From positions 21,208 through 85,207 of the IMG/VR virus record IMGVR_UViG_3300047323_000428: a DNA stretch of 64,000 bases. The stretch is one strand, 5' to 3'. The translations under genes were made by a program, and so were the position numbers. This document shows, piece by piece, positions 8,695-44,101 of this stretch. This stretch comes from a virus (taxonomy: Duplodnaviria > Heunggongvirae > Uroviricota > Caudoviricetes). Every line of letters starts with the position of its first letter. The first letter of the stretch is position 1. Under the pieces are notes generated by a model, which searched no databases, was not told where the DNA came from, and was given only the letters and a program-made list of their open reading frames with translations.

Positions 8695-9336
8695 TTACGC
8701 GCAGACGGCTTTGGCGTGAGCCACAAACGCGTCCGCACCCGTGAGTCCGGTTTGCTCTTCGATCAGCGCCATGAAGCGCGCCAGGTGCTTTTCATCTCGG
8801 CCGGCAACGGCTTTGAAGCCCAGCGCCTTCTCGAGCTTCACCTCACGCGCATCGGTCTTCTCGACGGTTTTGGCCGTCTCTGCCGCCTGCTCGCGCACTT
8901 CTGCGTCCAGATCCTCCACGAACGGAGCGTCGTTGATGATCGACAGGTCCGCGGTCATGAAGTCGAGCTCCTTCGGGTCGAAGATGCCTTCGAGGTCGAA
9001 GTCGAGGCTGGCAAGCTCTTCCTGCAGGATGCGCGCGTCGATCTCCGACAGGGCAACCCGGTTGTCCGCCAGGCGCAGCGCGCGTGCTTCCTCTTTGGAG
9101 AGGTCATCGCGCACGACCACCGGCACGTGGGTTTGTCCGAGCGAGAGTGCAGCCAGGCGCCGGCCGTGACCCGCGATGATGGTGCCGTCGGCTTCGGTGA
9201 CGATCGCCGTGTTCCAGCCGAAGGCCTTGATCGACTCGGCGATCTTCTTCACCTGTGCGTCGTCGTGGGTCTTCGCGTTCAGTTCGTAGGGCTTGAGCCA
9301 CTCGACGGGCTTGAGCACCGGTTTGAATTCGTTCAT
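8695..9336 (-). CDS. ParB-like nuclease domain protein (ParB/Srx fold)
   Basis: IVTEADGTIIAGHGRRLAA matches the ParB N-terminal GxxRxxA motif. ATG at 9334-9336 overlaps the upstream stop (ATGA). Confidence 0.6.
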   Translation of the reverse strand: MNEFKPVLKPVEWLKPYELNAKTHDDAQVKKIAESIKAFGWNTAIVTEADGTIIAGHGRRLAALSLGQTHVPVVVRDDLSKEEARALRLADNRVALSEIDARILQEELASLDFDLEGIFDPKELDFMTADLSIINDAPFVEDLDAEVREQAAETAKTVEKTDAREVKLEKALGFKAVAGRDEKHLARFMALIEEQTGLTGADAFVAHAKAVCA

Positions 9337-9551
9337 GCTTTTTCCTGATTCAGATAGGCGACCCACTGGCCTTTCGTCCAGCGACCCCAGTGCTTGGGCG
9401 TGAAAATCATTGCCTCGTAAGACGGCAGGCGCTTGAATTCGGTCGGCCAGAGCGTGCTGTCGTTGATGAAGGCGACTGACACGGTGTAGGCCATGTGGTT
9501 TCTAGCCAGCATGAGCATCACCAGGCCCATCAAAACCAAGCAGACGGTCAT
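9333..9551 (-). CDS. Small membrane protein (72 aa)
   Basis: N-terminal transmembrane helix MTVCLVLMGLVMLMLA. ATG at 9549-9551; the listed first codon is a GTG. Confidence 0.45.
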   Translation of the reverse strand: MTVCLVLMGLVMLMLARNHMAYTVSVAFINDSTLWPTEFKRLPSYEAMIFTPKHWGRWTKGQWVAYLNQEKA

Positions 9552-9745: not shown

Positions 9746-9750
9746 GGCTT

Positions 9751-10161
9751 TCAGCAGGTGATCCAGTCGGTTGCCAGCAATTCCGCGTGCGTCGGCAGGA
9801 ACGTGCGCGGCTCGTCACCGTCGCGGAAGAGCACAAGCATTTCGCGGTGCAAGCTCACAGTGCTGAAGGTCCAGCCCACGCGCTTGATCGTCAGACCGCT
9901 CAGAACCGCGCGCAGCGCCATGCTGAAGTCCATCCCCACCGCAACCCTGTAGGAGCGCTCGAAGACGTCCTTGGGGCTCCACGAGACGTATCCCGCGCGC
10001 CCTTCGACGTTCGGTGCGCCGCCGTCAGCGTATTCAACGAGGTAGCCTTCGGTCGTGGCGGCTTCGTTCTCCGGCAACGCCCAGCCGCGCAGTTGGTTGT
10101 AGGCGCCGAGCGTCATGGGCTCTCCATAGACGACCTTGGTGCCGATGTAGCGTTGATTCAT
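9751..10161 (-). CDS. Hypothetical protein (136 aa)
   Basis: Clean ATG ORF co-oriented with its neighbours. Confidence 0.5.
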   Translation of the reverse strand: MNQRYIGTKVVYGEPMTLGAYNQLRGWALPENEAATTEGYLVEYADGGAPNVEGRAGYVSWSPKDVFERSYRVAVGMDFSMALRAVLSGLTIKRVGWTFSTVSLHREMLVLFRDGDEPRTFLPTHAELLATDWITC

Positions 10162-10163
10162 GG

Positions 10164-10811
10164 TTATTTCGTGAGGAGGTGAACGAGTGCGGCGCCGGCG
10201 TTCGAGAGCGAGTCGTCCTCGGTGAAGCGCTGGGCCTTCATGGTCTTTTCGATGAGGTCCGTGATGGTGCCGACGTCCTCGACGGGCACCTTGAACCGCA
10301 TGATCTGATGGGTCTGCACGACCGCTTCCTTGGGCAACGGGGTTGGGGCCGCGTCGTCATCCGGTATATCTAAATCATCCAGTTCTATATTTACGGATGA
10401 AAAGATTGAAGCGAAGTCCGCGTCCGTGTAGGGCAAGAACGTTGCGAGGTCTTCGGGCGCTCCCAGACCGTCAAGCAGTTCCGCCAGGCGTAGCGTGTCG
10501 TCGTTGCCGTAGCGGGCGTTGTCGACGAGGCCAATCTCCTTCGCTTTCTGGTCGTCGATGGCACCCACGTTCATCACGGGCACGCGGTCGAAGCCCAGAC
10601 GCATCGCAGCGTCGCGCCGATGAGCGCCACCGAGGATCTGATAGCTGCCGTCGGCAAGGGTGCGCACGATGATCGGCTTGAACATGCCGAGGCGCTTCAG
10701 AGACGCCTCGATCTTGGCCTCCTCTTCCGGGCTGCACACGTTGGTGTTCCAGGGATTGGGCTTGAGCGCGGAAGGCGCCAGTTCGAGCGTTTCGATGTGG
10801 GGCTTACCCAT
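10164..10811 (-). CDS. Second ParB-like nuclease domain protein
   Basis: ILGGAHRRDAAMRLG motif. The likely ATG at 10809-10811 is M4 of the listed ORF, which begins with a TTG. Confidence 0.55.
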   Translation of the reverse strand: MGKPHIETLELAPSALKPNPWNTNVCSPEEEAKIEASLKRLGMFKPIIVRTLADGSYQILGGAHRRDAAMRLGFDRVPVMNVGAIDDQKAKEIGLVDNARYGNDDTLRLAELLDGLGAPEDLATFLPYTDADFASIFSSVNIELDDLDIPDDDAAPTPLPKEAVVQTHQIMRFKVPVEDVGTITDLIEKTMKAQRFTEDDSLSNAGAALVHLLTK

Positions 10812-10833
10812 AGGTTTCAATGGCTTAGTTGGA

Positions 10834-10851
10834 TAGTCAGTTTTGACTGTT
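10834..10851 (-). promoter_or_regulatory. PDM consensus copy (TAGTCAGTTTTGACTGTT) in a divergent intergenic region
   Basis: 22 nt upstream of the ParB-like ATG on the minus strand and 30 nt upstream of the plus-strand helicase ATG. Confidence 0.85.
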
Positions 10852-10880
10852 GGCGCTTATACTACGCCTTACACAACAGG

Positions 10881-12452
10881 ATGGCAACTCAGGACATGGC
10901 AACGATCACGCTGGCATACAACGCAACCACCGCGAAGCTCGTGGAAACCGACCGCGCGCTCAAGCTGGAGGTGCAAAAGCTCGTTTCCTACCGGGTGAGC
11001 GGCGCGGAGAACACGCTGCCCTTCAAAACCGGTGGCTGGGACGGCCGCAGCTCCTTCTTCGACTTTCGCAAGGGCACCTTCCCCGCCGGCTTCGTGCATT
11101 TCGTGGCAGCGGGCCTGCGTCGGGCCGGTCACACGGTGCGCTTCGTGGCAAAGGAAGCCCCGGAGCCGCTCGGACCGCTCAACCCCAAGATCGACAGCTT
11201 CCCGGAAGACGCGCGCTACGACTACCAGATGGAGACGGTCAACCGGCTCGTGAAACACCGCCAGATCATCGCCCAGCTCGCCACGGGCGCGGGCAAGAGC
11301 CGGGTCGCACGCCTTGCCTTCGCGCGTATCCGCCGGCCGACGCTTTTTCTCACCACGCGCTCGATCCTCATGTATCAGATGAAGGACGCGTTCGAAGAGT
11401 TGGGCGTGAAGTGCTCGGTGCTGGGCGACGGACAGTTCGGAACGGTCACAGTCGGCGCCGACGGTGAAGAACGACACTCGGTGAAGATGATGAGCGTTGG
11501 CATGGTTCAGACGCTTGTTTCGCGTCTTGCTGAACCGTGTCCGGACGATGACGTCGACAAGCAAAACGAGCAAGTGCGAATCCGCAACAAGACGATCGCG
11601 CTCTTGGAGAAGTTCGAGTTCGTGATCGGTGAGGAGGCGCACGAGGCGTCGGGCAACAGCTACTACGAGATCCTGCGCCACTGCAAGAACGCGCACTACC
11701 GGCTCGCACTGACAGCCACGCCCTTCATGAAGGACGATGAAGAGTCGAACATGCGCTTGATGGCCGCGTTCGGTCCGATCGGCATCAAGGTCAGCGAGAA
11801 GATGCTGATCGAGCGCGGCATCTACGCCCGCCCCTTCTTCAAATACGTGGCGCTCAAGACCAAGCCGCCCAAGCTCTTTCGGGGCACCACGTGGCAGGCC
11901 GCCTACCGCCTGGGGATTGTCGACAATGCCGAGCGCAATGCCCATATCGTCTTCGAGGCCCGCCGCGGCGTCGCATTGAAGCAGCCGGTGATGATCCTCG
12001 TGCAGCAGACACGCCACGGTGAGCTTTTGCGGGAGATGCTGGCTGCGAAGGGCGTGAAGGTGGAGTTCCTGCAGGGCGAGAACAACGCGAAGGAGCGCAA
12101 AGCGGCGCTCGGGCGTCTTCGGGAGCGGGAAACCGAGGTGCTGATCGGCACGACCATCATGGACGTTGGGGTCGACGTGCCGGCCATCGGGCTGGTGATC
12201 CTCGCCGGTGGTGGGAAGGCGCAGGTGGCGCTGCGTCAGCGGATCGGCCGCGGTGCGCGCGAGAAGAAGAAAGGCCCGAACTGCTTTTTCGTGGTCGACT
12301 TCGATGACCCCTGGAACAGCCACACGAAGGAGCACGCTCTGGCTCGCCGTGCGATCGTGGAGTCGACGCCGGGCTTCGTCGAAAACATCCTCCCGCCGGG
12401 CCGCGACTTCGATTTCGTGGGGCTGGGTTTTGCGACTCGCAAGGCAGCGTGA
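10881..12452 (+). CDS. SF2 DEAD/DEAH-box (type III restriction Res-like / UvsW-like) DNA helicase
   Basis: Walker A QLATGAGKS, DEAH-like VIGEEAHE, motif III LTATP and motif VI QRIGRGAR. ATG at 10881; the listed N-terminal extension overlaps the ParB gene. Confidence 0.75.
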   Translation: MATQDMATITLAYNATTAKLVETDRALKLEVQKLVSYRVSGAENTLPFKTGGWDGRSSFFDFRKGTFPAGFVHFVAAGLRRAGHTVRFVAKEAPEPLGPLNPKIDSFPEDARYDYQMETVNRLVKHRQIIAQLATGAGKSRVARLAFARIRRPTLFLTTRSILMYQMKDAFEELGVKCSVLGDGQFGTVTVGADGEERHSVKMMSVGMVQTLVSRLAEPCPDDDVDKQNEQVRIRNKTIALLEKFEFVIGEEAHEASGNSYYEILRHCKNAHYRLALTATPFMKDDEESNMRLMAAFGPIGIKVSEKMLIERGIYARPFFKYVALKTKPPKLFRGTTWQAAYRLGIVDNAERNAHIVFEARRGVALKQPVMILVQQTRHGELLREMLAAKGVKVEFLQGENNAKERKAALGRLRERETEVLIGTTIMDVGVDVPAIGLVILAGGGKAQVALRQRIGRGAREKKKGPNCFFVVDFDDPWNSHTKEHALARRAIVESTPGFVENILPPGRDFDFVGLGFATRKAA

Positions 12453-16075: not shown

Positions 16076-16105
16076 TTGCACGTTAGAAAAACGACGTGCT
16101 ATAGT
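16076..16105 (+). promoter_or_regulatory. Sigma70-like promoter TTGCAC-N18-TATAGT pointing into the T-depleted region
   Basis: The -35 element is at 16076-16081 and the -10 element at 16100-16105. A weaker upstream element (TTGCACGTG ... TAAAAAT, 16038-16070) repeats the TTTTTCTTGCACGTG word seen at the 12788 promoter. Confidence 0.55.
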
Positions 16106-16112
16106 TCTATCA

Positions 16113-16360
16113 CTGCAACGCGAAACGGAGTGACGAACGAAACGAACGAAAGCGAGAATCGACCGAAGACTGAAACCGAGCGACGCGAGACGCGACGCGA
16201 CGAACCGAAAAACGGTGCGCTCGAACCGAGCGACGGAAAAACGGAACGCGCGACGCGACGAAGCGAAAAACGGATCGCACGCAGTGAGACTGCGCGACAC
16301 GTGACGCTCGAACCGCGCGAGATGCGCGACGCACGCGCTGCGCCGGCGGCCGGCGCATGA
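16113..16360 (+). ncRNA. Candidate non-coding transcript with an extreme T-depleted composition
   Basis: About 250 nt with very few T on the plus strand (CGA/ACG/GAA-type repeats), directly downstream of the 16076-16105 promoter. It ends at the GCGCCGGCGGCCGGCGC palindrome (16340-16356). It contains no convincing ORF. Confidence 0.3.
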
Positions 16361-16396
16361 GGGAGACGGCCTAGGAGGTTTGCCTGCCGCCTTGGT

Positions 16397-16469
16397 CAAA
16401 ACTCCCTATCAGTGTCGGGCGAGGCTCCCGTTCAAATTCCCTATCAGTGTCGGCGACGGCTCCCGTTCC
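16397..16469. repeat. Two tandem iteron-like units (U1 16397-16433, U2 16434-16469)
   Basis: CAAAACTCCCTATCAGTGTCGGGCGAGGCTCCCGTTC and AAATTCCCTATCAGTGTCGGCGACGGCTCCCGTTCC. The conserved core is GTGTCGG-N6-GCTCCCGTTYC. Confidence 0.75.
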
Positions 16470-16554
16470 TTTCCATTCCACTCCACACCCCTAGGCCGAT
16501 CCCCTAGGCCGTGAGCAACAGCACCAAAAGGCGCCACACGGGCGCCCTTCTCCC

Positions 16555-16743
16555 TCAATACAGCTCCATCACACCCACACGGCCGTTGGTGCGCACTTGG
16601 CGACGCAGGTGCAGGATCTCCGCCTCTTCCTGCTGCTCCTCGAGCCAGTCGATAAGTTCGTGCGGCTTGGCGGCGCGGTGCTGGTGGTCGATGGGCTCAG
16701 CAGCGGTGATGGTCGATTCGAAGGCGCGGTGCGTGGTGTTCAT
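16555..16743 (-). CDS. Small hypothetical protein (62 aa)
   Basis: ATG at 16741-16743 (M60 of the listed ORF) and an acidic C-terminal half. The support is weak. Confidence 0.3.
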   Translation of the reverse strand: MNTTHRAFESTITAAEPIDHQHRAAKPHELIDWLEEQQEEAEILHLRRQVRTNGRVGVMELY

Positions 16744-16751
16744 GGCAGTAA

Positions 16752-16892
16752 TCAGGTTTGAGTATTGGAGCGGATACGACGGGAAAGAAACAGGATGAGG
16801 TCGACGAACTTCATCCAGGCAAAGGTGATGCCGGCGCCCGTGAGGGCGATCAGCAACACCGCGAGAATCAGTTGGGCGGTGTCTTGGGTCAT
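16752..16892 (-). CDS. Small hydrophobic membrane protein (46 aa), not in the ORF table
   Basis: ATG at 16890-16892. The sequence is MTQDTAQLILAVLLIALTGAGITFAWMKFVDLILFLSRRIRSNTQT. It abuts the stop of 16896-17180. Confidence 0.35.
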   Translation of the reverse strand: MTQDTAQLILAVLLIALTGAGITFAWMKFVDLILFLSRRIRSNTQT

Positions 16893-16895
16893 GGC

Positions 16896-17180
16896 TTATC
16901 CGACGAGCATCGGGGAGCACTCGGGATCGACTTCAGGGTTCAAGTCGAAATACAGGGCGCGCTGACAGGCGCGGTTGCAGGCGTCGATGTGATCGGCTCG
17001 GGCAATCTCGTAGACGGCGAAATCGCAACCGTGGGTTTCTTGTTGGAGCGCGACGAACTCGTCACCGTCGGAGGTGATGAGGAACTGGGAGAACGTCGAG
17101 TCGAGGAACAAGAACACGTCGGTCTTCGTGTTGTAGAAAGCGCGCAAGTCAGTGATCGGCAGCGTCGTCGGTGTTTTCAT
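16896..17180 (-). CDS. Hypothetical protein (94 aa)
   Basis: ATG at 17178-17180 (M23 of the listed ORF), downstream of an approximately 600-bp non-coding repeat region. Confidence 0.4.
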   Translation of the reverse strand: MKTPTTLPITDLRAFYNTKTDVFLFLDSTFSQFLITSDGDEFVALQQETHGCDFAVYEIARADHIDACNRACQRALYFDLNPEVDPECSPMLVG

Positions 17181-17408
17181 CGCGTTTCTCGCGTTGTTTG
17201 AAAGTGATGCTATTGTCTCGACCCGCGAGAGGGACAACTGTGGCAATCGTTCGAGGCGGCTCGGGAGCTGGTCAGGCTCTCTCCCTACCGCGGCCTAGGC
17301 GTTTTCCCAAGGCCTTCCCCTGCTCTCCTCTCTCCTACCGGCCTAGGCCGTCTCCCATAGGCGGCTACCCAAGGGGATCGGCCTAAAAGGGGCCGAGGAC
17401 AATCCAAT

Positions 17409-17446
17409 CAAAACTCCGTAGGGTGTCGGCCGCGGCTCCCGTTTCC
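17409..17446. repeat. Iteron-like unit U3 (CAAAACTCCGTAGGGTGTCGGCCGCGGCTCCCGTTTCC)
   Basis: Same GTGTCGG...GCTCCCGTTTCC core as U1 and U2. Confidence 0.75.
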
Positions 17447-17483
17447 ACGGGGATCGGCCTAGGCCTCGCAGGTGCGCGGGGCG

Positions 17484-17522
17484 AAAAATTTGGAATGGGT
17501 GTCGGCACCGGCTGCCGTTTCC
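17484..17522. repeat. Iteron-like unit U4 (AAAAATTTGGAATGGGTGTCGGCACCGGCTGCCGTTTCC)
   Basis: Core conserved. Its hairpin is CGGCA-N5-TGCCG. Confidence 0.7.
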
Positions 17523-17548
17523 TCGACGCTCTCCCCACGCACGCGCAC

Positions 17549-17590
17549 GGGGTTTGGGTTGGTTTGGTTTTAGGGGTTGGTTTTGGGTTT
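17549..17590 (+). repeat. Telomere-like G/T tract with G-quadruplex potential (GGGGTTTGGGTTGGTTTGGTTTTAGGGGTTGGTTTTGGGTTTT)
   Basis: Runs of GGGG/GGG separated by T-rich loops. It is followed at about 17633-17646 by CCCCCCCTCCCCCC. Confidence 0.6.
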
Positions 17591-17809
17591 TAAACTGCAT
17601 CCGATGAGGAACCCTACGGTGAAGAACCAAGTCCCCCCCTCCCCCCACAGACCTATAATCAGTGAGAGCAGGGGAGAACTCGATCCCACCAAGGGCACAC
17701 ATCGGAGGCTATCCGCGTATGGCAACCCAACAGGCAAGAACCAAGTCCCCCAGAAGAAGAAGCGACTCCCGACGCCAAGTGCTCGTCGGCAAACAATGTG
17801 CGGGAATCA

Positions 17810-17827
17810 TAGTCAATGGTGACTGTT
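17810..17827 (-). promoter_or_regulatory. PDM copy (TAGTCAATGGTGACTGTT) about 600 nt upstream of the nearest minus-strand CDS
   Basis: The motif matches, but the long non-coding stretch downstream of it contains iteron units U3 and U4 and the G-tract. Confidence 0.65.
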
Positions 17828-18010
17828 GGGTCAAGCGGCAATGTTGCGTGCGGGTAACGTGGGAGGGATCGGTTGGCAGGTGGGAAGTGTAAGAGTTGGG
17901 CGGCGCGGAACATTTTTCGTCGCTCCATAGCCATCCCCTCTTCCACCCGCGCTACTCCCCTTCCACGCAGCCCCTCTCCTCTGTTCCCCACACCTACCGC
18001 CCCTCTCTCT

Positions 18011-18253
18011 CTACCAGCTCCCATACTCTCCATACGCCTCCCGTGCGGGATCGTATAGGTCTTCCTCCGTCACTCCCGAGAACGTCGCGTTCATCATCCA
18101 TTCCAGATCCACGTGGTCGAACTCCGAGAGCCTGAATCTCCTACAAAGCGTCTCGTCCAGCACCATCACCTCTCTGCCTGTCTTGGTGTCGTGGGCGGTG
18201 TAGTAGCGGCTGCCGTCCTTTGTGTGCCCGCTGTCGTCGAGCTTGAGCTCCAT
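18011..18253 (-). CDS. Small protein (80 aa), paralog-array member with a C-terminal YGEYGSW
   Basis: The ATG overlaps the upstream stop (TGGTAGATGG junction). The C-terminal tail is ...EAYGEYGSW. Confidence 0.55.
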   Translation of the reverse strand: MELKLDDSGHTKDGSRYYTAHDTKTGREVMVLDETLCRRFRLSEFDHVDLEWMMNATFSGVTEEDLYDPAREAYGEYGSW

Positions 18254-18556
18254 CTACCATACCTCTCCATACCCCTGTGCTCGATCCCCTCTCCCCTTGA
18301 GCACCGTCGTCTTCACCTTCTTCCCGATGTTGTTGAACTGGAACTGTAGGTCGTAGATGTTGAGCTCCATGAAGCCGGGGAACTGCATTCCGACGATGGA
18401 TTCGCCTGCGTCGAGTGCGTCACGAACTGCCGCGTAGACCGTGAGTTGGTTTTCGTAGACCGAGCCGGTGCCTATGTCGCCGGTGCTGTCGCTCACTACG
18501 GTGACAGGGTAACGGCCGGCTGCGCTTTTCTTGTCTGTGATCTTGATGGTTGCCAT
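18254..18556 (-). CDS. Small protein (100 aa), paralog-array member with a C-terminal GYGEVW
   Basis: The ATG overlaps the upstream stop (TGGTAATGG). The C-terminus is ...RAQGYGEVW. Confidence 0.55.
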   Translation of the reverse strand: MATIKITDKKSAAGRYPVTVVSDSTGDIGTGSVYENQLTVYAAVRDALDAGESIVGMQFPGFMELNIYDLQFQFNNIGKKVKTTVLKGRGDRAQGYGEVW

Positions 18557-18798
18557 TACCAGACCTCTCCATACCCGGTTACTTCGTCCTTCTCGGTGTA
18601 GGGCGTGTCGTCCGGGTCGGTCAGGGCAAACCTAAGCCATTTGGTGTCGAAGCTGCCGAGCTTCTGGCCTACCTGGATTGGTGCTGGGTATTTGCTCTGG
18701 AGCAGGGTCGTCGGCATGGTGTAGTCCTCGAACGTCTTGGAGATGTGAATCTCGGTCCAGGTGTCGTTGTGTGCCAGGACGCTCACGTCGATTAGCAT
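18556..18798 (-). CDS. Small protein (80 aa), paralog-array member with a C-terminal GYGEVW
   Basis: The C-terminus is ...VTGYGEVW. It is the first gene after the 18.8-19.2 kb non-coding region. Confidence 0.55.
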   Translation of the reverse strand: MLIDVSVLAHNDTWTEIHISKTFEDYTMPTTLLQSKYPAPIQVGQKLGSFDTKWLRFALTDPDDTPYTEKDEVTGYGEVW

Positions 18799-19146
18799 AG
18801 GCCTTCTCTCTGCGGTTTCATTGCTTGATTGTCTCGTCTGCGGTGTGGGGTTGCTGCGGGAATCGTCGATTGGCTCTGAGCGCTTTAGAGACGTTTTGAG
18901 CGATCGGGGCGCGCGCTGCTGTCTGCGTGCGTCTTGAGCTTGGTGGCGCGCTTGTAGCGCGTTTTGACGCGTCCCTGAAGCGGTTGTGTCGCTCGGTTCG
19001 TCTGCGCTCGGTGCGCTTAGTCGGGTGTCAGAGTTGGCTTATACTTCTGTCGCAGATACGGCCAACTATAAGAGTGGAAATTCCCTTATAGATCAATGGC
19101 TTAGGAGTGATGGCCAAGGATCTCGGCCTAGGGCCGGTAACTCGAC

Positions 19147-19174
19147 AAGAAAAGGGGCTCCGAAGAGCCCTTTT
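19147..19174 (-). terminator. Rho-independent terminator after mazF (GGGGCTC-cgaa-GAGCCC flanked by an A-run and a T-run; bidirectional)
   Basis: Stem-loop at 19154-19170, with AAGAAAA upstream and TTTT downstream. Confidence 0.75.
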
Positions 19175-19177
19175 GCC

Positions 19178-19516
19178 TCACAGTTGGAGAAATGCGCGGA
19201 TCGCATATTTGGCGGCCGCGAGCTCGTCCTCTGTCGCCTGCTCGCCCTTGAAATCCACCTTTCGCTCGGTGTAACTCCAGGTGCTTATCTGATCGACCTG
19301 GGCCACACCTGGGCGAGCCAGGCTGTCGATCGGGATTTCCGTCTCCCACCCTCTCACGGTGGAGGTGATGGGCAGCCCAGTGAAGCGGCTGGTGATCTGA
19401 TTTACAACAAAGCTGGAGATCACCAACACCGCACGATAGCCGTCCTGCTCGTTACCTTTGGACGGGCCGATGTGCAGTCTCACGATATCGCCCGCTTCCG
19501 GAATGCCGTTCTTCAT
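19178..19516 (-). CDS. mazF: MazF/PemK-family endoribonuclease toxin
   Basis: PEAGDIVRL...GNEQDGYRAVLVISS...LPITS profile typical of Kid/PemK/MazF. Lies 3 nt downstream of the antitoxin. Confidence 0.8.
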   Translation of the reverse strand: MKNGIPEAGDIVRLHIGPSKGNEQDGYRAVLVISSFVVNQITSRFTGLPITSTVRGWETEIPIDSLARPGVAQVDQISTWSYTERKVDFKGEQATEDELAAAKYAIRAFLQL

Positions 19517-19519
19517 GTG

Positions 19520-19807
19520 TCACCAATTGTCGTTTCGGTCAGGATCGTCGGGGCCGCCCGTTTCGTTGCCGACGGGATCGCCCCAGTCGATTGTTTCGTG
19601 CGGAACGAGCTTGCCCTCCTCATGCTGCTGAATCAGGCGCTCAAGCGAGAATCGCCTGATCGCGGTGTGCGGCCGCACCTGTAGGCGCCCGTCTTCGACC
19701 ACCACATCCACTTCTTGGCCCTCTTGCAGAGCCACCTCGTCGGCCAAGCTGGCCGGAATACGCACTGCGAGGCTGTTGCCCCAGCGCTTTACTGTCTGAA
19801 TGGCCAT
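19520..19807 (-). CDS. mazE: MazE/AbrB-type (SpoVT/AbrB domain) antitoxin
   Basis: VKRWGNSLAVRIPASLADEVALQEGQEVDVVVEDGRLQVRP is a SpoVT/AbrB swapped-hairpin domain. Sits upstream of mazF. Confidence 0.8.
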   Translation of the reverse strand: MAIQTVKRWGNSLAVRIPASLADEVALQEGQEVDVVVEDGRLQVRPHTAIRRFSLERLIQQHEEGKLVPHETIDWGDPVGNETGGPDDPDRNDNW

Positions 19808-19853
19808 TTCCGCACTCCATTGCGTTGCTGCGTTGAAACACTACTCCGTGAGG

Positions 19854-19919
19854 CGTATAAACACGTTGCTACGTTTCTATCGTAGCGCTCGACTCTTGGA
19901 GTGTCAACGCGTTTATACG
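19854..19919. promoter_or_regulatory. Candidate mazEF operator: a 15-bp inverted repeat CGTATAAACACGTTG / CAACGCGTTTATACG flanking an inner palindrome GCTACGtttctatCGTAGC
   Basis: The inverted-repeat arms lie at 19854-19868 and 19905-19919, with the inner palindrome at 19868-19886, immediately upstream of mazE. Confidence 0.5.
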
Positions 19920-19922
19920 TTC

Positions 19923-20153
19923 CTACCAGGTGCCCATGTCCGCGTAGGCCGGCTCGGGTCTCAGGATGGGCACCTGGTAGTCCGACAACAGGCTATAGGC
20001 CACGTTGTCGACGAACTGGAAGCTCTCGCCGGGCAACAACTGCATCTGGGCGTAGATGCGCGCGGTTTGCATGTTGGGCGTGCGGCAGGTGTTCTCCAAC
20101 CACGCCCGGTAGCCGCCCTTCATGCTTCGGGCGATTTCGTCGCATTCGGTCAT
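19923..20153 (-). CDS. Hypothetical protein (76 aa; C-terminus ...ADMGTW)
   Basis: ORF coupled (ATGA) with the next gene. Confidence 0.45.
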   Translation of the reverse strand: MTECDEIARSMKGGYRAWLENTCRTPNMQTARIYAQMQLLPGESFQFVDNVAYSLLSDYQVPILRPEPAYADMGTW

Positions 20154-20515
20154 CGCGGCATCTCCGGCATTGGGCCGATCCGATGCACGACGCTCGTTGG
20201 CAGCTCGGCCATCGTGGTCGGCGTCTTCTTGGGGCGGCCGCGCTTCTTGGCTGGCTCTGCGGGAGTCTCCACCTGCGGCATCGCAATACTTGCGGCCACC
20301 CGCCTTTCGAGGCCGAGCGCCGTGAAATGCGCCTTCGCCTCGTCCTTGTCGTTCGGGAACAGGGTATAGAGCGTGTTCGGGTCCGGCAGCAAGGCGACGT
20401 CGAGCACCAGGGTCATCGAGCCGTTCTCATTGCACCAAAGTGCGCCGATCTTGCCCGAGCGGTGCTCCGTCACCTTGTTGAGCGCCTTTAGGATGAAGTC
20501 AGGGCTGCGGCTCAT
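20150..20515 (-). CDS. Hypothetical protein with an AT-hook-like KKRGRPKK segment (121 aa)
   Basis: ATG at 20513-20515 (M57 of the listed ORF). Confidence 0.4.
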   Translation of the reverse strand: MSRSPDFILKALNKVTEHRSGKIGALWCNENGSMTLVLDVALLPDPNTLYTLFPNDKDEAKAHFTALGLERRVAASIAMPQVETPAEPAKKRGRPKKTPTTMAELPTSVVHRIGPMPEMPR

Positions 20516-22789: not shown

Positions 22790-22807
22790 TAATCAGTTTT
22801 GACTGTT
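22790..22807 (-). promoter_or_regulatory. PDM copy (TAATCAGTTTTGACTGTT)
   Basis: Lies 70 nt upstream of the 22719 start in a 340-bp non-coding gap. Confidence 0.75.
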
Positions 22808-24948: not shown

Positions 24949-25130
24949 TCACAGGGCTTGTAGAGGCCGTTGATGGCGTTGTCGATCGCCTCGCGCCAGT
25001 CTTTGCCGTAGGCCACGCATCGACCGACTTCGGGCACGTGAAACGTGACCCAGTGCCGGTTTCGGTCGCGGTCGAATTCGGGGAAGCTGTGGAGCACGAA
25101 GTCCAGGCGCGGGGTGTCGTAGAGATTCAT
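24945..25130 (-). CDS. HicB-like (UPF0150) antitoxin-fold small protein
   Basis: HVPEVGRCVAYGKDWREAIDNAINGL resembles the HicB/UPF0150 core. The ATG at 25128-25130 overlaps the upstream stop. Confidence 0.35.
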   Translation of the reverse strand: MNLYDTPRLDFVLHSFPEFDRDRNRHWVTFHVPEVGRCVAYGKDWREAIDNAINGLYKPCD

Positions 25131-25591
25131 CACCACGCCCCGACGTCGTCGTCCACGTCAGTCGTGGGCTTATTCGGATCGGGCGGCTTGGGCGGCTCTA
25201 CCGGCGCGAGAGTGTTGCCTACCTCGTGCAGCACCTCCTCGCCCGTCTCCAGATCCACCTCCAGCTCGCTCTCGGTCCACTTGGCGATGAACGCGGTGTA
25301 GAAGTCGAGGGCATCCTTCTCGTTGGAGAAGGTCTTGCCGTCATCGACCGGGTCCGTGCGCAGCCGGCCATCGCTCGCGTAGTTGCCGACGGTCAAGATG
25401 AAAAGTGGCCACGTGTCCGAAAAGCTGCTGTCGGCGTTGGGCACGCGACCATTCCACTCGAGGATCACCCGGACCTTGCCGTTGTCGAACTGCTTGAGCG
25501 TCGTGTAGGACTCGTCCGCCTGCTTTTCCTTCCAGGCCGCGAGGCTGATCTTCTCGCCGTCGCGGTCGTAAAAACTGATCTTGGGCATCAC
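25130..25591 (-). CDS. Hypothetical protein (153 aa; C-terminus ...DDDVGAW)
   Basis: ORF coupled to its neighbours. Confidence 0.5.
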   Translation of the reverse strand: MMPKISFYDRDGEKISLAAWKEKQADESYTTLKQFDNGKVRVILEWNGRVPNADSSFSDTWPLFILTVGNYASDGRLRTDPVDDGKTFSNEKDALDFYTAFIAKWTESELEVDLETGEEVLHEVGNTLAPVEPPKPPDPNKPTTDVDDDVGAW

Positions 25592-33558: not shown

Positions 33559-33972
33559 TCAGGGGTTTTGTTGGGAATCGTCGCTCCCGCTCATGCTTGC
33601 CAGATACTTGCCGTGATCGAACGCCTTCTTCATGGCGCGCAACTGGGCGAGCGTGGGCTTGTCCTTCGAGTCGTGCCAGGAGATGGCCGACAGCCACGAA
33701 CGCAGGCGAGCCTCATCGCGCGAATCCTTCACCTTCTGCGTGATCGGGTCGATACAACCAGAGGCGGCGCCGATAAAGTAGCCCGTCTCCCGGTTGGCGC
33801 GATGTTCGTTTCCCTTCGCATCTTTCAGGACGAACTGCGTGCGCGTCAGGCGATCGATCGTGAACAGCACATAACCGTGGTGGCGCGTTCGGTGCGCGAC
33901 TTCCTGACCGGGTCGAAGCGACTTCAGCCACTCGGCGCGTTCTTCTCTTTCATCCATCACCAGCTCCCCCAT
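33559..33972 (-). CDS. Hypothetical protein (137 aa)
   Basis: The ATG lies 16 nt inside the end of the upstream gene. Confidence 0.5.
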   Translation of the reverse strand: MGELVMDEREERAEWLKSLRPGQEVAHRTRHHGYVLFTIDRLTRTQFVLKDAKGNEHRANRETGYFIGAASGCIDPITQKVKDSRDEARLRSWLSAISWHDSKDKPTLAQLRAMKKAFDHGKYLASMSGSDDSQQNP

Positions 33973-34607
33973 TGTTCGTGTGCGACAGTTGCGCCGCTTC
34001 GCTTGGCGTATTCGTCGGCCGATAGCGACCGTGCCTGTGCCTTCAGGTTCTCACGCAACTGCCGATCACCTTCCGGCTCGTTGAGCACCATGTTCGCGGG
34101 CGTGAAGCAACCAACGAAGCCAGGGTAATAGTCGTCGGTGTTGCACGTGCCGAACTCGATCACAACCTTGCCCGTCTCAACGTCGACCAGCTCCACGACG
34201 TCATGATTTTTATTGGCGCACTTCCGGCCAATCACCTTCACGGGCGCGAAGGTGTTCTTGATCGTGGTGTCGCGCGTCACCCAAACGGCGCTCAACGAGG
34301 ACCGGTAGCCGTCGTTGGGATCTTCCATCGCCGTGTAGCACTGGTTGTTCAGGACGAAGGAGAACGCGGTTGCGTGCTCGGCGCCCCAGCCCTTGCTGCA
34401 AGCGACGTTCTCCGAGCCGACGCCGGTGAGCACAAAGCTCTTGCCGATGAAGAAGTCGAAGTCCACTTCCTTGACGTTGCGGCCCGAGAACTCGCCGGCG
34501 GGCTTGCCATCGTCTTCAGGCAGCTCCTCCGGGAGTTTGACCTCGCTGTTATAGCCGGCAAGCTCCATAAACTCGTCGGCAAGCTCGTCCAGGTTCAGCT
34601 TGGGCAC
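33957..34607 (-). CDS. Hypothetical protein (216 aa; C-terminus ...HEQWGSW)
   Basis: ATG ORF. Confidence 0.5.
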   Translation of the reverse strand: MPKLNLDELADEFMELAGYNSEVKLPEELPEDDGKPAGEFSGRNVKEVDFDFFIGKSFVLTGVGSENVACSKGWGAEHATAFSFVLNNQCYTAMEDPNDGYRSSLSAVWVTRDTTIKNTFAPVKVIGRKCANKNHDVVELVDVETGKVVIEFGTCNTDDYYPGFVGCFTPANMVLNEPEGDRQLRENLKAQARSLSADEYAKRSGATVAHEQWGSW

Positions 34608-34608
34608 C

Positions 34609-35808
34609 TTAGTTCCCCTTCACGCAGAGAATCGCCTTGAGCGTATGCACGACCTCGACCAGATCGGCCTGATTCGCCATCACGACGTCCAAGTTCTTGT
34701 AGGCACCCGGAATCTCGTCGATCACATCGGCGTCCTTGCGGCACTCCACACCCTCGGTCTGAGCCTTGAGGTCGTCGATGTTAAAGAAGCGCTTGGCAGC
34801 GGCCCGGCTCATCTTCCGACCGGCACCGTGCGAGCACGAGCAATAGGACTCGAGATTGCCCTTGCCGCGCACGATGTAAGAGCGCTGACCCATCGAGCCC
34901 GGAATGATGCCGAGATCGCCTTCACGCGCACGGATGGCGCCCTTGCGCGTCACCCACAAGTTCTTGCCGAAGTGGTTCTCACGGGCGATGTAGTTGTGGT
35001 GACAGTTGATTGCCTCCTGCGTAATCGTGAAGTCGAGCGCGATGCGCCGGCGAAGCGCCGCGATCACGACTTCCATCATCAGCTTGCGGTTCTCCAGCGC
35101 GTAGGCTTGCGCCCATTCGACAGCCGCCACATATGAGGCGAAGTCTTCGGTGTCGTCCGGGATATACGCCAGGTCTTCGTCGGGCAGGTTGATGAAGTAG
35201 CCACGCATGGCCTTCTTCGCCTTCTCGATGAAATACGTGCCGATCATGTTGCCGATGCCACGCGAGCCGGAGTGCAGCATCACCCACACGTCCTGGTTTT
35301 CGTCGATGCAAAGCTCGATGAAGTGGTTGCCCGAGCCGAGACTTCCAAGCTGTGGCGCTGCCTTCTCCAACAAAATGCGCGCCCCACCCACCTTGCTCAA
35401 GGCATCCGTCACCTGAAGCGTCATGAACGGTAGGCGATCGAGGTTGGCCTCGCGGTCCTCGTTGCGTCGGTGTGCTCCACCAGCGCCGAGCGGCACGTCA
35501 CGCTCGATCTGGTGGCGAATCTCGGTGAGGCTGTCGGGCAGGTCGCTCGCCTTCAACGAAAGGCGCACCGCGTTCATTCCACAGCCTATGTCAACACCGA
35601 CGGCCGCCGGGATGATCGCCTTCTCGGTAGCGATGACCGAACCTACCGTTGCGCCCTTCCCCGCATGGACGTCGGGCATGAGCGCGACGCCATTGCCTGC
35701 GATGAACGGCAGCCGAGCGATGTTCTTCGCCTGCTGAAGCGCCGCATCCTCGATTTCGTCGGTCCACGCCTTGATCGGGCGCGCGCCGTCTTCCTTGATT
35801 ACCTGCAT
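34609..35808 (-). CDS. rtcB: RtcB-family RNA 3'-phosphate ligase
   Basis: Conserved metal-site and catalytic motifs: MPDVHAGKGATVGSV, DIGCGM, and an NHAGRK-like segment. Confidence 0.85.
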   Translation of the reverse strand: MQVIKEDGARPIKAWTDEIEDAALQQAKNIARLPFIAGNGVALMPDVHAGKGATVGSVIATEKAIIPAAVGVDIGCGMNAVRLSLKASDLPDSLTEIRHQIERDVPLGAGGAHRRNEDREANLDRLPFMTLQVTDALSKVGGARILLEKAAPQLGSLGSGNHFIELCIDENQDVWVMLHSGSRGIGNMIGTYFIEKAKKAMRGYFINLPDEDLAYIPDDTEDFASYVAAVEWAQAYALENRKLMMEVVIAALRRRIALDFTITQEAINCHHNYIARENHFGKNLWVTRKGAIRAREGDLGIIPGSMGQRSYIVRGKGNLESYCSCSHGAGRKMSRAAAKRFFNIDDLKAQTEGVECRKDADVIDEIPGAYKNLDVVMANQADLVEVVHTLKAILCVKGN

Positions 35809-44058: not shown

Positions 44059-44101
44059 GTCAAAACTGACTACGTGCAGATTATAGTCAGTTTTGACTGT
44101 T
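44059..44101. promoter_or_regulatory. Inverted pair of PDM copies: GTCAAAACTGACTA (44059-44072, opposite orientation) and TAGTCAGTTTTGACTGTT (44084-44101)
   Basis: This is the only copy in the window in the reverse orientation. The two copies together form a 43-bp palindromic arrangement between the RuvC-like gene and gene 43542-44045. Confidence 0.75.

What the first reader, a model, noticed from the sequence alone, without database searches (positions are those of the whole stretch)
19147..19919. Complete mazE-mazF toxin-antitoxin module with its own operator-like palindromes and terminator inside a phage replication/early region
A SpoVT/AbrB-type antitoxin (19520-19807) and a MazF/PemK toxin (19178-19516) lie in canonical order with a 3-nt gap.
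- A 15-bp inverted repeat plus an inner 6-bp palindrome lies immediately upstream (19854-19919).
- A bidirectional terminator follows (19147-19174).
- Phage-borne mazEF modules are uncommon.
- It may serve as anti-abortive-infection (neutralising a host MazF-like toxin via the antitoxin), as addiction or plasmid-like maintenance, or as a controlled host RNA-degradation tool.
- It has no copy of the dispersed phage motif, so it probably has its own promoter.
Basis: partly seen in the sequence, partly recalled or inferred. Interest (0 to 1): 0.6.

Follow-up and report, generated by a model that had tools for sequence, protein, structure and literature searches.

The report
MazEF toxin-antitoxin cassette in temperate phage
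A temperate phage of Burkholderia-family bacteria carries an intact, self-regulated MazE/MazF toxin-antitoxin cassette that has been exchanged with its hosts; this is an ordinary kind of module, but its insertion site is unusually well defined.

Summary
The two genes are real. ORF 19520-19807 is a MazE/AbrB antitoxin and ORF 19178-19516 is a MazF/PemK RNase with the catalytic Glu/Arg/Thr conserved. Both are most similar to E. coli MazE/MazF among solved structures.

The 15-nt inverted repeat is non-random. Its arms bracket a sigma-70-type promoter. The same layout of GTATnnAC half-sites flanking the promoter occurs in 26 of 32 homologous loci, so it is the family's operator.

The terminator is not the cassette's own. 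A cassette-less relative has the same hairpin directly after the upstream phage gene. This defines a 745-bp insertion (19178-19922) between that gene's stop codon and its terminator.

Nearest homologs (60-88%) are chromosomal MazEF of Caballeronia, Paraburkholderia and Burkholderia. Sister phages carry the cassette at the same locus but with alleles from different bacterial clades, so it has been exchanged more than once. dN/dS is about 0.1 for both genes.

Cassette-bearing relatives are integrative temperate phages (integrase, CI-like repressor, integration beside tRNA-Cys).

Most likely role: a module expressed in the lysogen for prophage stabilisation and/or exclusion of other phages. A host-MazF decoy role is not excluded.

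Verdict: new member of a known kind, moderate interest.

The parts
19178..19922 (-). Whole inserted cassette (745 bp): operator/promoter, mazE and mazF up to the mazF stop codon
   Evidence: Relative L069 is collinear on both sides but lacks this segment. There the upstream gene's stop codon is followed directly by the hairpin. Nucleotide homology to bacterial copies runs from the mazE ATG to 5 nt past the mazF stop.
19520..19807 (-). mazE antitoxin, 95 aa (N-terminal AbrB/SpoVT swapped-hairpin domain, C-terminal toxin-binding tail)
   Evidence: Pfam PF04014 E 3.8e-13. PDB matches: MazE 7d2n_E at 4.9e-12 and E. coli MazE 1mvf/1ub4_C at 2e-11, aligned over residues 4-82. E. coli K7/R8, R16 and W73 correspond to K7/R8, R16 and W75 here. 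dN/dS 0.07-0.12.
19178..19516 (-). mazF toxin, 112 aa (PemK/MazF endoribonuclease family)
   Evidence: Pfam PF02452 E 1.2e-13. Matches E. coli MazF 1ub4_A/5ck9 at E 5e-13 over residues 4-103. E. coli E24/R29/T52 correspond to E23/R28/T51 here. R28 and T51 are invariant and E23 is at least 90% conserved in 28 homologs. dN/dS 0.09-0.18.
19808..19922 (-). 115-nt promoter/operator region of the cassette
   Evidence: Holds the only sigma-70-like promoter hit in 18800-20200. GTATNNAC sites reach 14.5 per kb in 32 homologous upstream regions, against 0.40 per kb across all loci and 0.17 per kb in the window.
19879..19907 (-). Sigma-70-type core promoter: -35 TTGACA (19902-19907), 17-nt spacer, -10 TACGAT (19879-19884)
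   Evidence: 10 of 12 consensus positions match. An equivalent promoter was found in 27 of 32 homologous loci.
19905..19919 (-). Upstream operator arm CGTATAAACGCGTTG, overlapping the -35 box; contains the half-site GTATAAAC and the 8-bp palindrome AACGCGTT
   Evidence: A half-site abuts the -35 box in 26 of 32 family promoters.
19854..19868 (-). Downstream operator arm CAACGTGTTTATACG (inverted copy), 10 nt after the -10 box
   Evidence: The arm sequence differs in sister phage L001 (TTGATACAA / TTGTATCAA) but the geometry is kept.
19823..19875 (-). Further operator-like repeats: AACG[T/C]AGCAACG at 19864-19875 and 19823-19834, and GTGTTTCAACGC at 19830-19841
   Evidence: the repeat finder families D8 and D11. 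'GTAGCAAC' is listed as a downstream half-site in several homologs.
19815..19818 (-). Shine-Dalgarno GGAG, 7 nt before the mazE ATG
   Evidence: Read directly from the sequence.
19147..19174 (-). Intrinsic terminator hairpin (GGGCTC-TTCG-GAGCCC plus CTTTTCTT). It is phage backbone shared with the upstream gene, not part of the cassette.
   Evidence: It is present in the cassette-less L069. The stem sequence differs between phages while pairing is kept (alignment A2).
19127..19146 (-). About 20-nt tail after the hairpin (GTCGAGTTACCGGCCCTAGG). It is shared by all phage relatives and by a subset of bacterial mazEF loci; possibly a recombination anchor.
19923..20153 (-). Upstream phage gene (76 aa, ends ...DMGTW). 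Its stop codon forms the left junction of the insertion.
   Evidence: Homologs in L069, L001 and L040.

Best explanation
This is a canonical, self-regulated type II MazE-MazF cassette that has been exchanged between Burkholderiaceae chromosomes and a lineage of integrative temperate ~110-kb phages. It sits as a moron-like insertion between an early phage gene and that gene's terminator.

Mechanism, with each step marked as shown or inferred:
1. (Inferred from sequence) Host sigma-70 RNA polymerase transcribes mazE-mazF from TTGACA-17-TACGAT, independently of the phage-specific promoter motif. The cassette can therefore be expressed in the lysogen. Read-through from upstream phage genes adds expression during lytic growth.
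2. (Inferred from family-wide conservation) MazE, alone or with MazF, binds the GTATnnAC half-sites that flank the -35 and -10 boxes and represses its own promoter.
3. (Inferred from conserved catalytic residues and homology to solved MazF) MazF is a sequence-specific endoribonuclease that is held inactive by the C-terminal tail of MazE.
4. (Inferred biological role) When MazE synthesis stops, free MazF arrests the cell. Synthesis would stop after prophage loss, or after transcription shut-off by a superinfecting phage. The cassette would thereby stabilise the prophage and/or give the lysogen abortive-infection-type exclusion of competing phages.
For: Identity of the module:
- Pfam, PHROG and PDB matches.
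- Catalytic and binding residues conserved.

Operator and promoter:
- The inverted repeat is non-random, 0 of 2000 shuffles.
- GTATNNAC is about 36-fold enriched upstream of mazE homologs.
- 26 of 32 loci share the layout of half-sites flanking the promoter.
- The arm sequence changes between loci while the geometry is kept.

Insertion:
- Empty site in L069, with junctions at the upstream stop codon and the hairpin.

Retention and selection:
- The same locus is occupied in the window, L003, L004, L040, L001 and L104.
- dN/dS is 0.09 for mazF and 0.12 for mazE between two phage copies at dS of about 0.9-1.0.

Temperate, integrative lifestyle:
- A CI-like HTH gene is conserved in four relatives.
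- L044 and L001's own contig carry a tyrosine recombinase.
- Paraburkholderia sp. genome contig L102 reads efp-earP-uvrC-pgsA-tRNA-Gly-Gly-Cys, then integrase, HTH_17, HTH_3, then CobT-CobS-sigma-DnaE-gp32-exonuclease-RecA. This is collinear with the window, with DnaE 82%, CobS 87% and RecA 85% identical.
- One 83-kb contig (L103/L104) holds the host flank, the integrase and mazEF at the syntenic locus.

Independence from the phage transcription programme:
- No phage motif lies near the cassette.
Against: - No experiment: toxicity, neutralisation, operator binding and expression in lysogens are all untested.
- The window stops before the integrase/repressor region, so this phage's own lysogeny module was not seen.
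- Most relatives in IMG/VR lack this cassette, so it is dispensable (L069).
- PADLOC has no matching defence model.
- Cassette alleles resemble host-clade chromosomal alleles. Host MazE might therefore cross-neutralise the phage toxin and blunt any addiction effect (anti-addiction argument from general TA knowledge).
Confidence: 0.55

Rival explanations
1. Counter-defence decoy. The phage keeps a mazEF allele matched to its host clade so that phage-made MazE neutralises the host's own chromosomal MazF when infection shuts off host MazE synthesis. This would prevent MazF-mediated abortive infection. The toxin gene is retained only because it is coupled to mazE or needed as co-repressor.
For: - The host family carries chromosomal homologs at 60-89% identity.
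- The phage cassettes are polyphyletic and match different bacterial clades. L001 and L104 are 88-91% identical to Paraburkholderia copies, the window and L040 group with Caballeronia-type copies, and phage monophyly appears in 0 of 200 bootstraps.
- L104 lies on a contig with the same host flank (efp-earP-uvrC-pgsA-tRNA) as the Paraburkholderia sp. genome contig L102, and carries a Paraburkholderia-type allele.
- Read-through from early phage genes would supply MazE during lytic growth.
- Precedents: PhiTE-F captured host ToxI by recombination (PMC3475682); phi3T AimX and YosL inhibit host MazF (PMC10769878); orphan antitoxins occur in T4-like phages (PMC11825919).
Against: - The toxin is intact, keeps its catalytic residues, and is under purifying selection as strong as the antitoxin's in a phage-to-phage comparison (dN/dS 0.086 against 0.119). 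Known decoys are antitoxin-only.
- Cross-neutralisation at 70-90% identity is untested.
- The actual host and its mazEF content are unknown.
Confidence: 0.2
2. Selfish passenger. The cassette is a small mobile TA element that spreads and persists through its own addictive property and recombination, with no net benefit to the phage or the lysogen.
For: - The same cassette occurs alone in unrelated chromosomal contexts, on Burkholderia plasmids and in unrelated prophages L002 and L038.
- Most relatives of the phage lack it (L069).
- A common 3' hairpin plus a tail of about 22 nt travels with it.
Against: - In a phage, loss of the toxin gene should be neutral or favourable. Yet mazF has stayed under purifying selection across substantial phage divergence.
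- The same locus has been filled at least twice.
Confidence: 0.15
3. Plasmid-prophage addiction. The phage is maintained as a low-copy plasmid, like SSU5 or P1, and mazEF kills cells that lose it (post-segregational killing, as with P1 phd-doc).
For: - The portal's best matches are ~105-114-kb Acinetobacter plasmids at 61.6% identity, and 966 plasmid records match in all.
- The window has two ParB-like genes and recA, as described for the AB and SSU5 phage-plasmids (PMC7969092).
- Relative L041 encodes a Rep_3 initiator.
- The shell genome of SSU5-type elements includes TA systems (PMC7969092).
Against: - The Rep_3-bearing relative (the contig of L041 and L069) is exactly the one that lacks the cassette.
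- Cassette-bearing relatives have a tyrosine recombinase, and one is seen joined to chromosomal flank at a tRNA cluster.
- No ParA or Rep was found in the 64 kb that hold nearly all non-structural genes.
Confidence: 0.07
4. Lytic-cycle weapon. MazF is released during infection to degrade host mRNA as a host shut-off tool, with phage transcripts spared.
For: Read-through transcription from early genes is plausible. The phage also encodes RtcB, which can in principle reseal 2',3'-cyclic-phosphate/5'-OH RNA ends.
Against: - The antitoxin is co-expressed upstream and translationally coupled, so there is no evident way to free the toxin.
- The cleavage specificity is unknown, so depletion of target sites in phage genes could not be tested.
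- RtcB is common in phages that have no TA module (457 records).
Confidence: 0.03

Closest known systems
E. coli chromosomal MazE-MazF (chpA), PDB 1ub4, 5ck9, 1mvf
   Same: - It is the best solved-structure match for the toxin, and for the antitoxin it scores nearly equal to the top hit, MazE 7d2n_E.
- Same gene order and similar sizes.
- Catalytic E/R/T and MazE K7/R8, R16 and the toxin-binding Trp are conserved.
- Autoregulation through palindromic operators at the promoter is expected.
   Different: - Only 31% (MazF) and 37% (MazE) identity.
- Below the NCBIfam equivalog cutoffs: 67 against 120 bits and 52 against 113 bits. ACA specificity therefore cannot be assumed.
- MazE has a C-terminal extension of about 11 residues.
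- The operator is built from GTATnnAC half-sites flanking the promoter.
- The module lies in a phage.
Chromosomal and plasmid MazEF of Caballeronia, Paraburkholderia, Burkholderia and Trinickia
   Same: - True orthologous family: 60-88% identity to the window's MazF and up to 91% between other phage and bacterial copies.
- Same promoter/operator architecture.
- Some copies share the 3' hairpin and tail.
   Different: Those copies sit among ordinary chromosomal genes or on plasmids. Here the cassette is inserted in a phage early region, between a phage gene and its terminator.
P1 phd-doc and other TA modules of temperate phages and phage-plasmids (SSU5 shell genome)
   Same: A type II TA module carried by a temperate phage, autoregulated, and presumed to act in the lysogenic state (PMC7969092).
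   Different: - Different toxin family (MazF RNase rather than the Doc kinase).
- The cassette-bearing relatives here are integrative, not plasmid prophages.
MazF-like genes in sequenced phages (PHROG 1936; Paenibacillus phages API480 and SV21, Pantoea phage G19)
   Same: Phage-borne MazF/PemK toxin, with an adjacent antitoxin in the Paenibacillus phages.
   Different: Only 31-34% identity, with unrelated phages and hosts. These are independent acquisitions.
Phage anti-TA strategies: PhiTE pseudo-ToxI and captured ToxI, phi3T AimX/YosL, T4-like orphan DarG-like antitoxins
   Same: Phages acquire or mimic host antitoxins, and capture by recombination with a host TA locus is documented (PMC3475682, PMC10769878, PMC11825919). 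Here the phage alleles match host-clade alleles.
   Different: Those systems carry only the antitoxic component. Here the toxin is intact and under selection.

Membership tests
MazF/PemK toxin family (Pfam PF02452) | Profile match above the curated threshold over the full domain | tested here: met
   51.7 bits against a cutoff of 23.1, covering residues 8-110 of 112 and profile positions 2-109 of 109.
MazF/PemK toxin family (Pfam PF02452) | Catalytic residues equivalent to E. coli MazF R29 and T52 (and E24). Their roles are taken from the published MazF literature and are my own knowledge. | tested here: met
   R28, T51 and E23 align to them. R28 and T51 are invariant in 28 homologs.
MazF/PemK toxin family (Pfam PF02452) | CcdB/MazF SH3-like barrel fold | not tested
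   No structure was predicted. There is only a full-length sequence alignment to solved MazF chains at E 5e-13.
MazF/PemK toxin family (Pfam PF02452) | Ribosome-independent, sequence-specific endoribonuclease activity and toxicity | not testable with these tools
   Needs expression and RNA cleavage assays.
E. coli MazF / MazE equivalogs (NCBIfam NF007386 / NF007312) | Score above the equivalog cutoff | tested here: not met
   MazF scores 67.4 bits against 120 and MazE 52.2 against 113. They are family members, not equivalogs, so ACA specificity is not implied.
MazE / AbrB-SpoVT antitoxin (Pfam PF04014) | N-terminal swapped-hairpin DNA-binding domain above threshold, with the conserved basic DNA-contact residues | tested here: met
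   49.6 bits against 24.7 over residues 6-48. K7/R8 and R16 are conserved.
MazE / AbrB-SpoVT antitoxin (Pfam PF04014) | C-terminal toxin-binding segment with the conserved Trp (E. coli W73, motif IDWG[ED]P) | tested here: met
   The motif reads 'ETIDWGDP' with W75, aligned to E. coli 'ENIDWGEP'.
Type II toxin-antitoxin operon | Antitoxin-first bicistron with tight coupling, and a promoter overlapped by palindromic or repeated operators | tested here: met
   3-nt gap. The promoter is flanked by inverted half-sites and the layout is conserved in 26 of 32 homologs. Actual binding is untested.
Type II toxin-antitoxin operon | Labile antitoxin, stable toxin, and neutralisation by complex formation | not testable with these tools
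   Needs biochemistry and genetics.
Phage moron (autonomous insertion between phage genes) | Present or absent between otherwise collinear relatives (an empty site) | tested here: met
   L069 lacks the 745 bp while both flanks are conserved.
Phage moron (autonomous insertion between phage genes) | Own promoter and own terminator | tested here: inconclusive
   It has its own sigma-70-like promoter. The terminator is the pre-existing backbone hairpin, although some bacterial copies carry a similar hairpin and tail.
Phage-plasmid (SSU5 / AB-type) | Phage structural genes together with plasmid replication and partition genes in one replicon | tested here: inconclusive
   - The portal is closest to phage-plasmids, and two ParB-like genes are present.
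- Rep_3 is found only in the cassette-less relative L041.
- No Rep or ParA in the window.
- Cassette-bearing relatives are integrase-type and one is seen integrated.
Orphan-antitoxin counter-defence (Dmd, captured ToxI, DarG-like) | Antitoxin carried without a functional cognate toxin | tested here: not met
   The toxin ORF is intact, its catalytic residues are conserved, and dN/dS is about 0.09.

The most novel reading that the evidence does not exclude
The site between the 76-aa early gene and its terminator is a swap locus. At it, temperate Burkholderiaceae phages repeatedly install the mazEF allele of their current host clade. Phage MazE then cross-neutralises the host's chromosomal MazF (counter-abortive infection), while the intact toxin addicts or protects the lysogen. 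On this reading it is a dual-use, host-tracking TA cassette. The shared hairpin and tail of about 22 nt, found in both phage and bacterial copies, would be the recombination anchor for the exchange.
Probability: 0.15. Interest if true: 0.65.

Novelty: new member of a known kind. Interest (0 to 1): 0.4.

Why it matters
TA modules on temperate phages and prophages are well known, so the module itself is ordinary. The anatomy is the useful part.
- There is an exact 745-bp insertion with an empty-site relative.
- The operator architecture is conserved across the family.
- Two different host-clade alleles occupy the same phage locus.
- Both genes are under purifying selection.

This gives a clean natural system for asking whether a phage-borne MazEF works for the phage (anti-host-MazF), for the lysogen (exclusion of other phages) or only for itself. 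It also documents gene flow of a complete TA cassette between Burkholderiaceae chromosomes and their temperate phages.

Tried and rejected
- Megablast of 17-23 kb against 50,697 phage records gave no match, so the lineage has no close cultured relative.
- Rfam at gathering thresholds found nothing in the whole window, and no tRNAs were found.
- PADLOC models gave no hit for the TA proteins or their neighbours.
- I considered that bacterial loci sharing the 3' tail might be prophage remnants. Rejected: outside the cassette only short compositional tblastx noise was found, and the neighbours are ordinary chromosomal genes.
- I first favoured plasmid-prophage addiction. I demoted it after finding an integrase in cassette-bearing relatives, integrated copies, and Rep_3 only in the cassette-less relative.
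- Attempts to see this phage's own lysogeny module beyond position 64000 failed.
- Isolate-derived relatives L050 and L068 have no close match in PLSDB.
- Scans with neighbour genes to sample the locus in more relatives returned few loci.
- A specific RtcB-MazF link was considered and not supported, because RtcB is widespread in phages.
- No structure prediction was run, because the sequence matches to solved MazE and MazF are full-length.
Full report
1. THE OBSERVATION

On the minus strand, ORF 19520-19807 (95 aa) and ORF 19178-19516 (112 aa) lie 3 nt apart. They match Pfam MazE_antitoxin (PF04014, E 3.8e-13) and PemK_toxin (PF02452, E 1.2e-13), both well above the gathering scores. They also match PHROG 4324 and PHROG 1936, the latter annotated 'MazF-like growth inhibitor'.

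Among solved structures the best toxin match is E. coli MazF (1ub4_A, 5ck9; E 5e-13 over residues 4-103). The antitoxin matches MazE 7d2n_E and E. coli MazE 1mvf/1ub4_C (E 5e-12 to 2e-11 over residues 4-82).

E. coli MazF E24, R29 and T52 correspond to E23, R28 and T51 here. MazE K7/R8, R16 and the toxin-binding W73 (IDWG[ED]P) are also conserved. R28 and T51 are invariant in 28 homologs. NCBIfam places both proteins nearest the E. coli MazF and MazE equivalog models but far below their cutoffs. They are family members, and the cleavage motif cannot be assumed.

2. PROMOTER AND OPERATOR

The 15-nt inverted repeat (19854-19868 and 19905-19919, 14 of 15 matches) is real. None of 2000 dinucleotide-preserving shuffles of the 115-nt intergenic region reaches it. 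Between its arms lies the only sigma-70-like promoter hit of the neighbourhood: TTGACA (19907-19902), a 17-nt spacer, then TACGAT (19884-19879).

I collected 33 homologous loci from Burkholderiaceae genomes, plus viral and metagenomic ones, and compared 32 mazE-upstream regions.
- 27 have an equivalent promoter.
- 26 have a GTA[T/G]nnAC half-site abutting the -35 box and at least one more within 50 nt after the -10 box.
- GTATNNAC density is 14.5 per kb in these regions, against 0.40 per kb over all loci and 0.17 per kb in the window. The only two strict copies in window 19000-20100 are the two arms.
- Arm sequence and orientation vary between loci. For example, L001 has TTGATACAA / TTGTATCAA around TTGACA-17-TATGAT. 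The geometry is kept.

This is what an autoregulatory operator should look like. Binding itself is inferred, not shown.

3. THE WINDOW AND THE PHAGE MOTIF

The window is a large phage genome. It encodes portal, large terminase, class I RNR, ThyX, SbcCD, a DnaE-type polymerase, a gp32-like SSB, RecA and RtcB.

AGTCANNTTTGACTGTT occurs 27 times against 0.08 expected, nearly all in one orientation and in intergenic gaps. The nearest copies are at 17811 and 22791, and there is none at the cassette. A 215-aa ORF at 61198-61845 has a weak Sigma70_r2 match, which suggests a phage sigma factor for that motif. The cassette's host-type promoter is therefore a separate regulatory regime.

4. THE TERMINATOR AND THE EMPTY SITE

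The hairpin at 19147-19174 with its T-run is there (dG -16.4 kcal/mol, z -1.84), but it is not the cassette's own.

Relative L069 (IMG/VR UViG_3300046500_000231, 113 kb) is collinear with window 30000-15100. It goes straight from the stop codon of the 76-aa gene's homolog ('...TGGTAA') into 'GGCACAAAGGGGCATCCATGCCCCTTCTTTTCGTCGAGTTACCGGCCCTAGG'. In the window the same backbone reads '...TGGTAG', then the 745-bp cassette ending '...CTGTGA', then 'GGCAAAAGGGCTCTTCGGAGCCCCTTTTCTTGTCGAGTTACCGGCCCTAGG'.

So the cassette (19178-19922) lies exactly between a phage gene's stop codon and that gene's intrinsic terminator. The stems differ between phages while pairing is kept (alignment A2), which supports a real terminator. 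I found no convincing minus-strand terminator between 22596 and 19922, so read-through from early phage genes into mazEF is expected. 'Bidirectional' is unsupported: only four T follow the stem on the + strand.

5. ORIGIN AND EVOLUTION

The closest proteins are a 99% twin on a 110.8-kb metagenome contig (L003) and then 60-88% homologs. All the named ones come from Caballeronia, Paraburkholderia, Burkholderia or Trinickia. The family also occurs on Burkholderia glumae plasmids. In bacteria the cassette sits alone among unrelated chromosomal genes.

Within the phage lineage the same locus is occupied in L003 and L004 (near-identical), L040 (MazF 88%), L001 (69%) and L104 (69%). The phage copies are not each other's closest relatives.
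- L001 and L104 are 88-91% identical to Paraburkholderia chromosomal copies. L001 is 84% identical in nucleotides to P. bryophila over exactly mazE-mazF.
- The window and L040 group with Caballeronia-type copies.
- In 200 bootstrap replicates, L001 groups with three Paraburkholderia copies in 193, the window groups with L040 in 200, and the phage copies are monophyletic in 0.

At least two independent exchanges between phage and bacterium have therefore filled this locus. The direction is unresolved. In L001, L104 and Paraburkholderia sp. MPAMCS5 (L012) a small gene of about 90 aa lies divergently just upstream of mazE. A hairpin plus a tail of about 22 nt is shared by the phages, including the empty-site one, and by a subset of bacterial copies. 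That points either to phage-to-bacterium transfer or to a recombination anchor.

Both genes are under purifying selection. Between the window and L040, dN/dS is 0.119 for mazE and 0.086 for mazF at dS of about 0.9-1.0. Between L001 and P. bryophila it is 0.07 and 0.10.

6. LIFESTYLE

The portal's best matches anywhere are ~105-114-kb Acinetobacter plasmids at 61.6% identity, and 966 plasmid records of the SSU5/AB phage-plasmid supergroup match in all. The best cultured phages reach 56.5%. The window has two ParB-like genes and recA, as described for those elements (PMC7969092). This first suggested plasmid addiction.

The region just beyond the window's right edge, seen in relatives, tells a different story.
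- A Cro/CI-type HTH gene is conserved in four relatives.
- Next to it, L041 has a Rep_3 initiator. L044 and L001's own contig instead have a tyrosine recombinase.
- In a Paraburkholderia sp. genome (L102) the lineage is an integrated prophage. The order is efp-earP-uvrC-pgsA-tRNA-Gly-Gly-Cys, then integrase, HTH_17, HTH_3, then CobT-CobS-sigma-DnaE-gp32-exonuclease-RecA. It is collinear with the window, with DnaE 82%, CobS 87% and RecA 85% identical.
- CobT relatives also lie on megabase-scale contigs of Ralstonia and Duganella.
- One 83-kb contig (L103/L104) carries that host flank, the integrase and mazEF at the syntenic locus.
- The Rep_3 relative is the one that lacks the cassette.

The window's own lysogeny module could not be retrieved.

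7. INTERPRETATION

What is shown:
- It is a complete MazEF-family cassette with intact catalytic and binding residues.
- It has a host-type promoter embedded in conserved operator repeats.
- It is precisely inserted in the early region of a temperate phage lineage.
- It has been exchanged with host-family chromosomes more than once.
- It is kept under purifying selection.

What is inferred: autorepression by MazE or MazE-MazF, RNase toxicity of MazF, expression in the lysogen, and release of MazF when MazE synthesis stops.

My favoured biological role (confidence 0.55) is a lysogenic-state module that stabilises the prophage and/or aborts infection by competing phages.

The main rival (0.2) is that phage MazE acts as a decoy against the host's own MazF. 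The match between phage alleles and host-clade alleles supports it, and so do published precedents (PMC3475682, PMC10769878, PMC11825919). The selected, intact toxin weakens it as the sole role.

The other rivals are a purely selfish passenger (0.15), plasmid-prophage addiction (0.07) and a lytic host shut-off weapon (0.03).

8. COMPARISON WITH WHAT IS KNOWN, AND VERDICT

It works like E. coli MazEF and is a member of the MazF/PemK and MazE/AbrB families, but it is not an equivalog of the E. coli proteins. Temperate phages and phage-plasmids are known to carry TA modules, for example P1 phd-doc and the SSU5 shell genome (PMC7969092). MazF-like genes already form a PHROG family. This subfamily, however, is found in only 5 of 50,697 phage records, all distant.

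Verdict: new member of a known kind. Interest is moderate (0.4). It rests on the clean empty site, the conserved operator and the allele replacement matched to host clade, not on the module itself.

Noticed in passing
window, 27 sites, e.g. 2870-2886, 10835-10851, 17811-17827, 22791-22807, 44085-44101: The dispersed near-palindromic motif AGTCANNTTTGACTGTT (+ strand) occurs 27 times against 0.08 expected. Almost all copies share one orientation and lie in short gaps just upstream of minus-strand genes. It is probably a phage-specific promoter or regulatory site.
   Followed up: partly
window 61198-61845 (-): A 215-aa ORF next to CobS/CobT has a weak Sigma70_r2 Pfam match in identical or related contigs. 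It may be a phage-encoded sigma factor that reads the dispersed motif.
   Followed up: no
window 16100-17900: A gene-poor stretch of about 1.8 kb holds tandem repeats (29 nt x 3 at 16191-16278, 35 nt x 2 at 16399-16468). It also holds clustered GGCCTAGG/CCTAGGCC palindromes, which number 10 and 8 in the whole window against about 1.8 expected. No Rfam family matches. It could be an origin, an iteron array or a partition site.
   Followed up: partly
window 18011-18253, 18254-18556, 18556-18798, 19923-20153 and eight others, e.g. 25130-25591, 33957-34607, 51491-51880: 12 of 93 minus-strand ORFs end in Trp, mostly as '...G-x-W' (GYGEVW, GEYGSW, DMGTW, WGSW, VGAW). The small genes on both sides of the cassette belong to this set, and MazE itself ends in W. 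It may be a shared C-terminal docking motif; unexplained.
   Followed up: no
L041:4260-5042 versus L044:5069-6421 and L084:1-1224: At the same position next to a conserved CI-like HTH gene, relatives carry either a plasmid Rep_3 initiator or a tyrosine recombinase. One phage lineage seems to switch between plasmid and integrative lysogeny modules.
   Followed up: partly
L102:5717-7616 and L103:5763-7620: Prophages of this lineage are integrated beside a tRNA-Gly, tRNA-Gly, tRNA-Cys cluster downstream of uvrC-pgsA, in a Paraburkholderia sp. genome (L102) and in a metagenome contig with the same host flank (L103). The attachment site is probably the 3' end of tRNA-Cys.
   Followed up: partly
window 34609-35808 (-): The phage encodes an RtcB RNA ligase. 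The closest copies are in Bordetella phage PHB04 (74.6%) and Burkholderia phage FLC9 (71.4%). RtcB could reseal MazF-type RNA ends, but it is common in phages without TA modules (457 records).
   Followed up: partly
L001:5205-5480 (-), L104:5231-5503 (-), L012:3282-3504 (-): A small gene of about 90 aa and unknown function lies divergently just upstream of mazE in two sister phages and in Paraburkholderia sp. MPAMCS5. L001's copy is 54% identical to that of L012 but only 35% identical to that of L104. It has no Pfam, NCBIfam or PADLOC hit.
   Followed up: partly
L040:5968-6594 (-): In phage relative L040 an ion-channel gene (Ion_trans / Ion_trans_2, 208 aa) directly follows the cassette on the opposite strand, where the window has small '...GxW' ORFs.
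   Followed up: no
L003:19764-20174 (roughly window 9750-10160, -) and window 8695-9366, 10164-10820: Two ParB-like genes (PHROG 930 and 723) flank a 136-aa gene with a faint Tad2-like (anti-Thoeris) Pfam hint. A DEAD/ResIII helicase lies on the opposite strand at 10620-12452.
   Followed up: no
window 49489-50040 (-): A NUMOD4 + HNH_3 homing-endonuclease-like gene sits immediately upstream of the SbcD-like gene (48431-49504).
   Followed up: no
L044:156-1133 (+): A 325-aa ORF in a relative carries a TacA1-like antitoxin domain (E 1e-5), so other TA-related genes occur in the lineage's lysogeny region.
   Followed up: no
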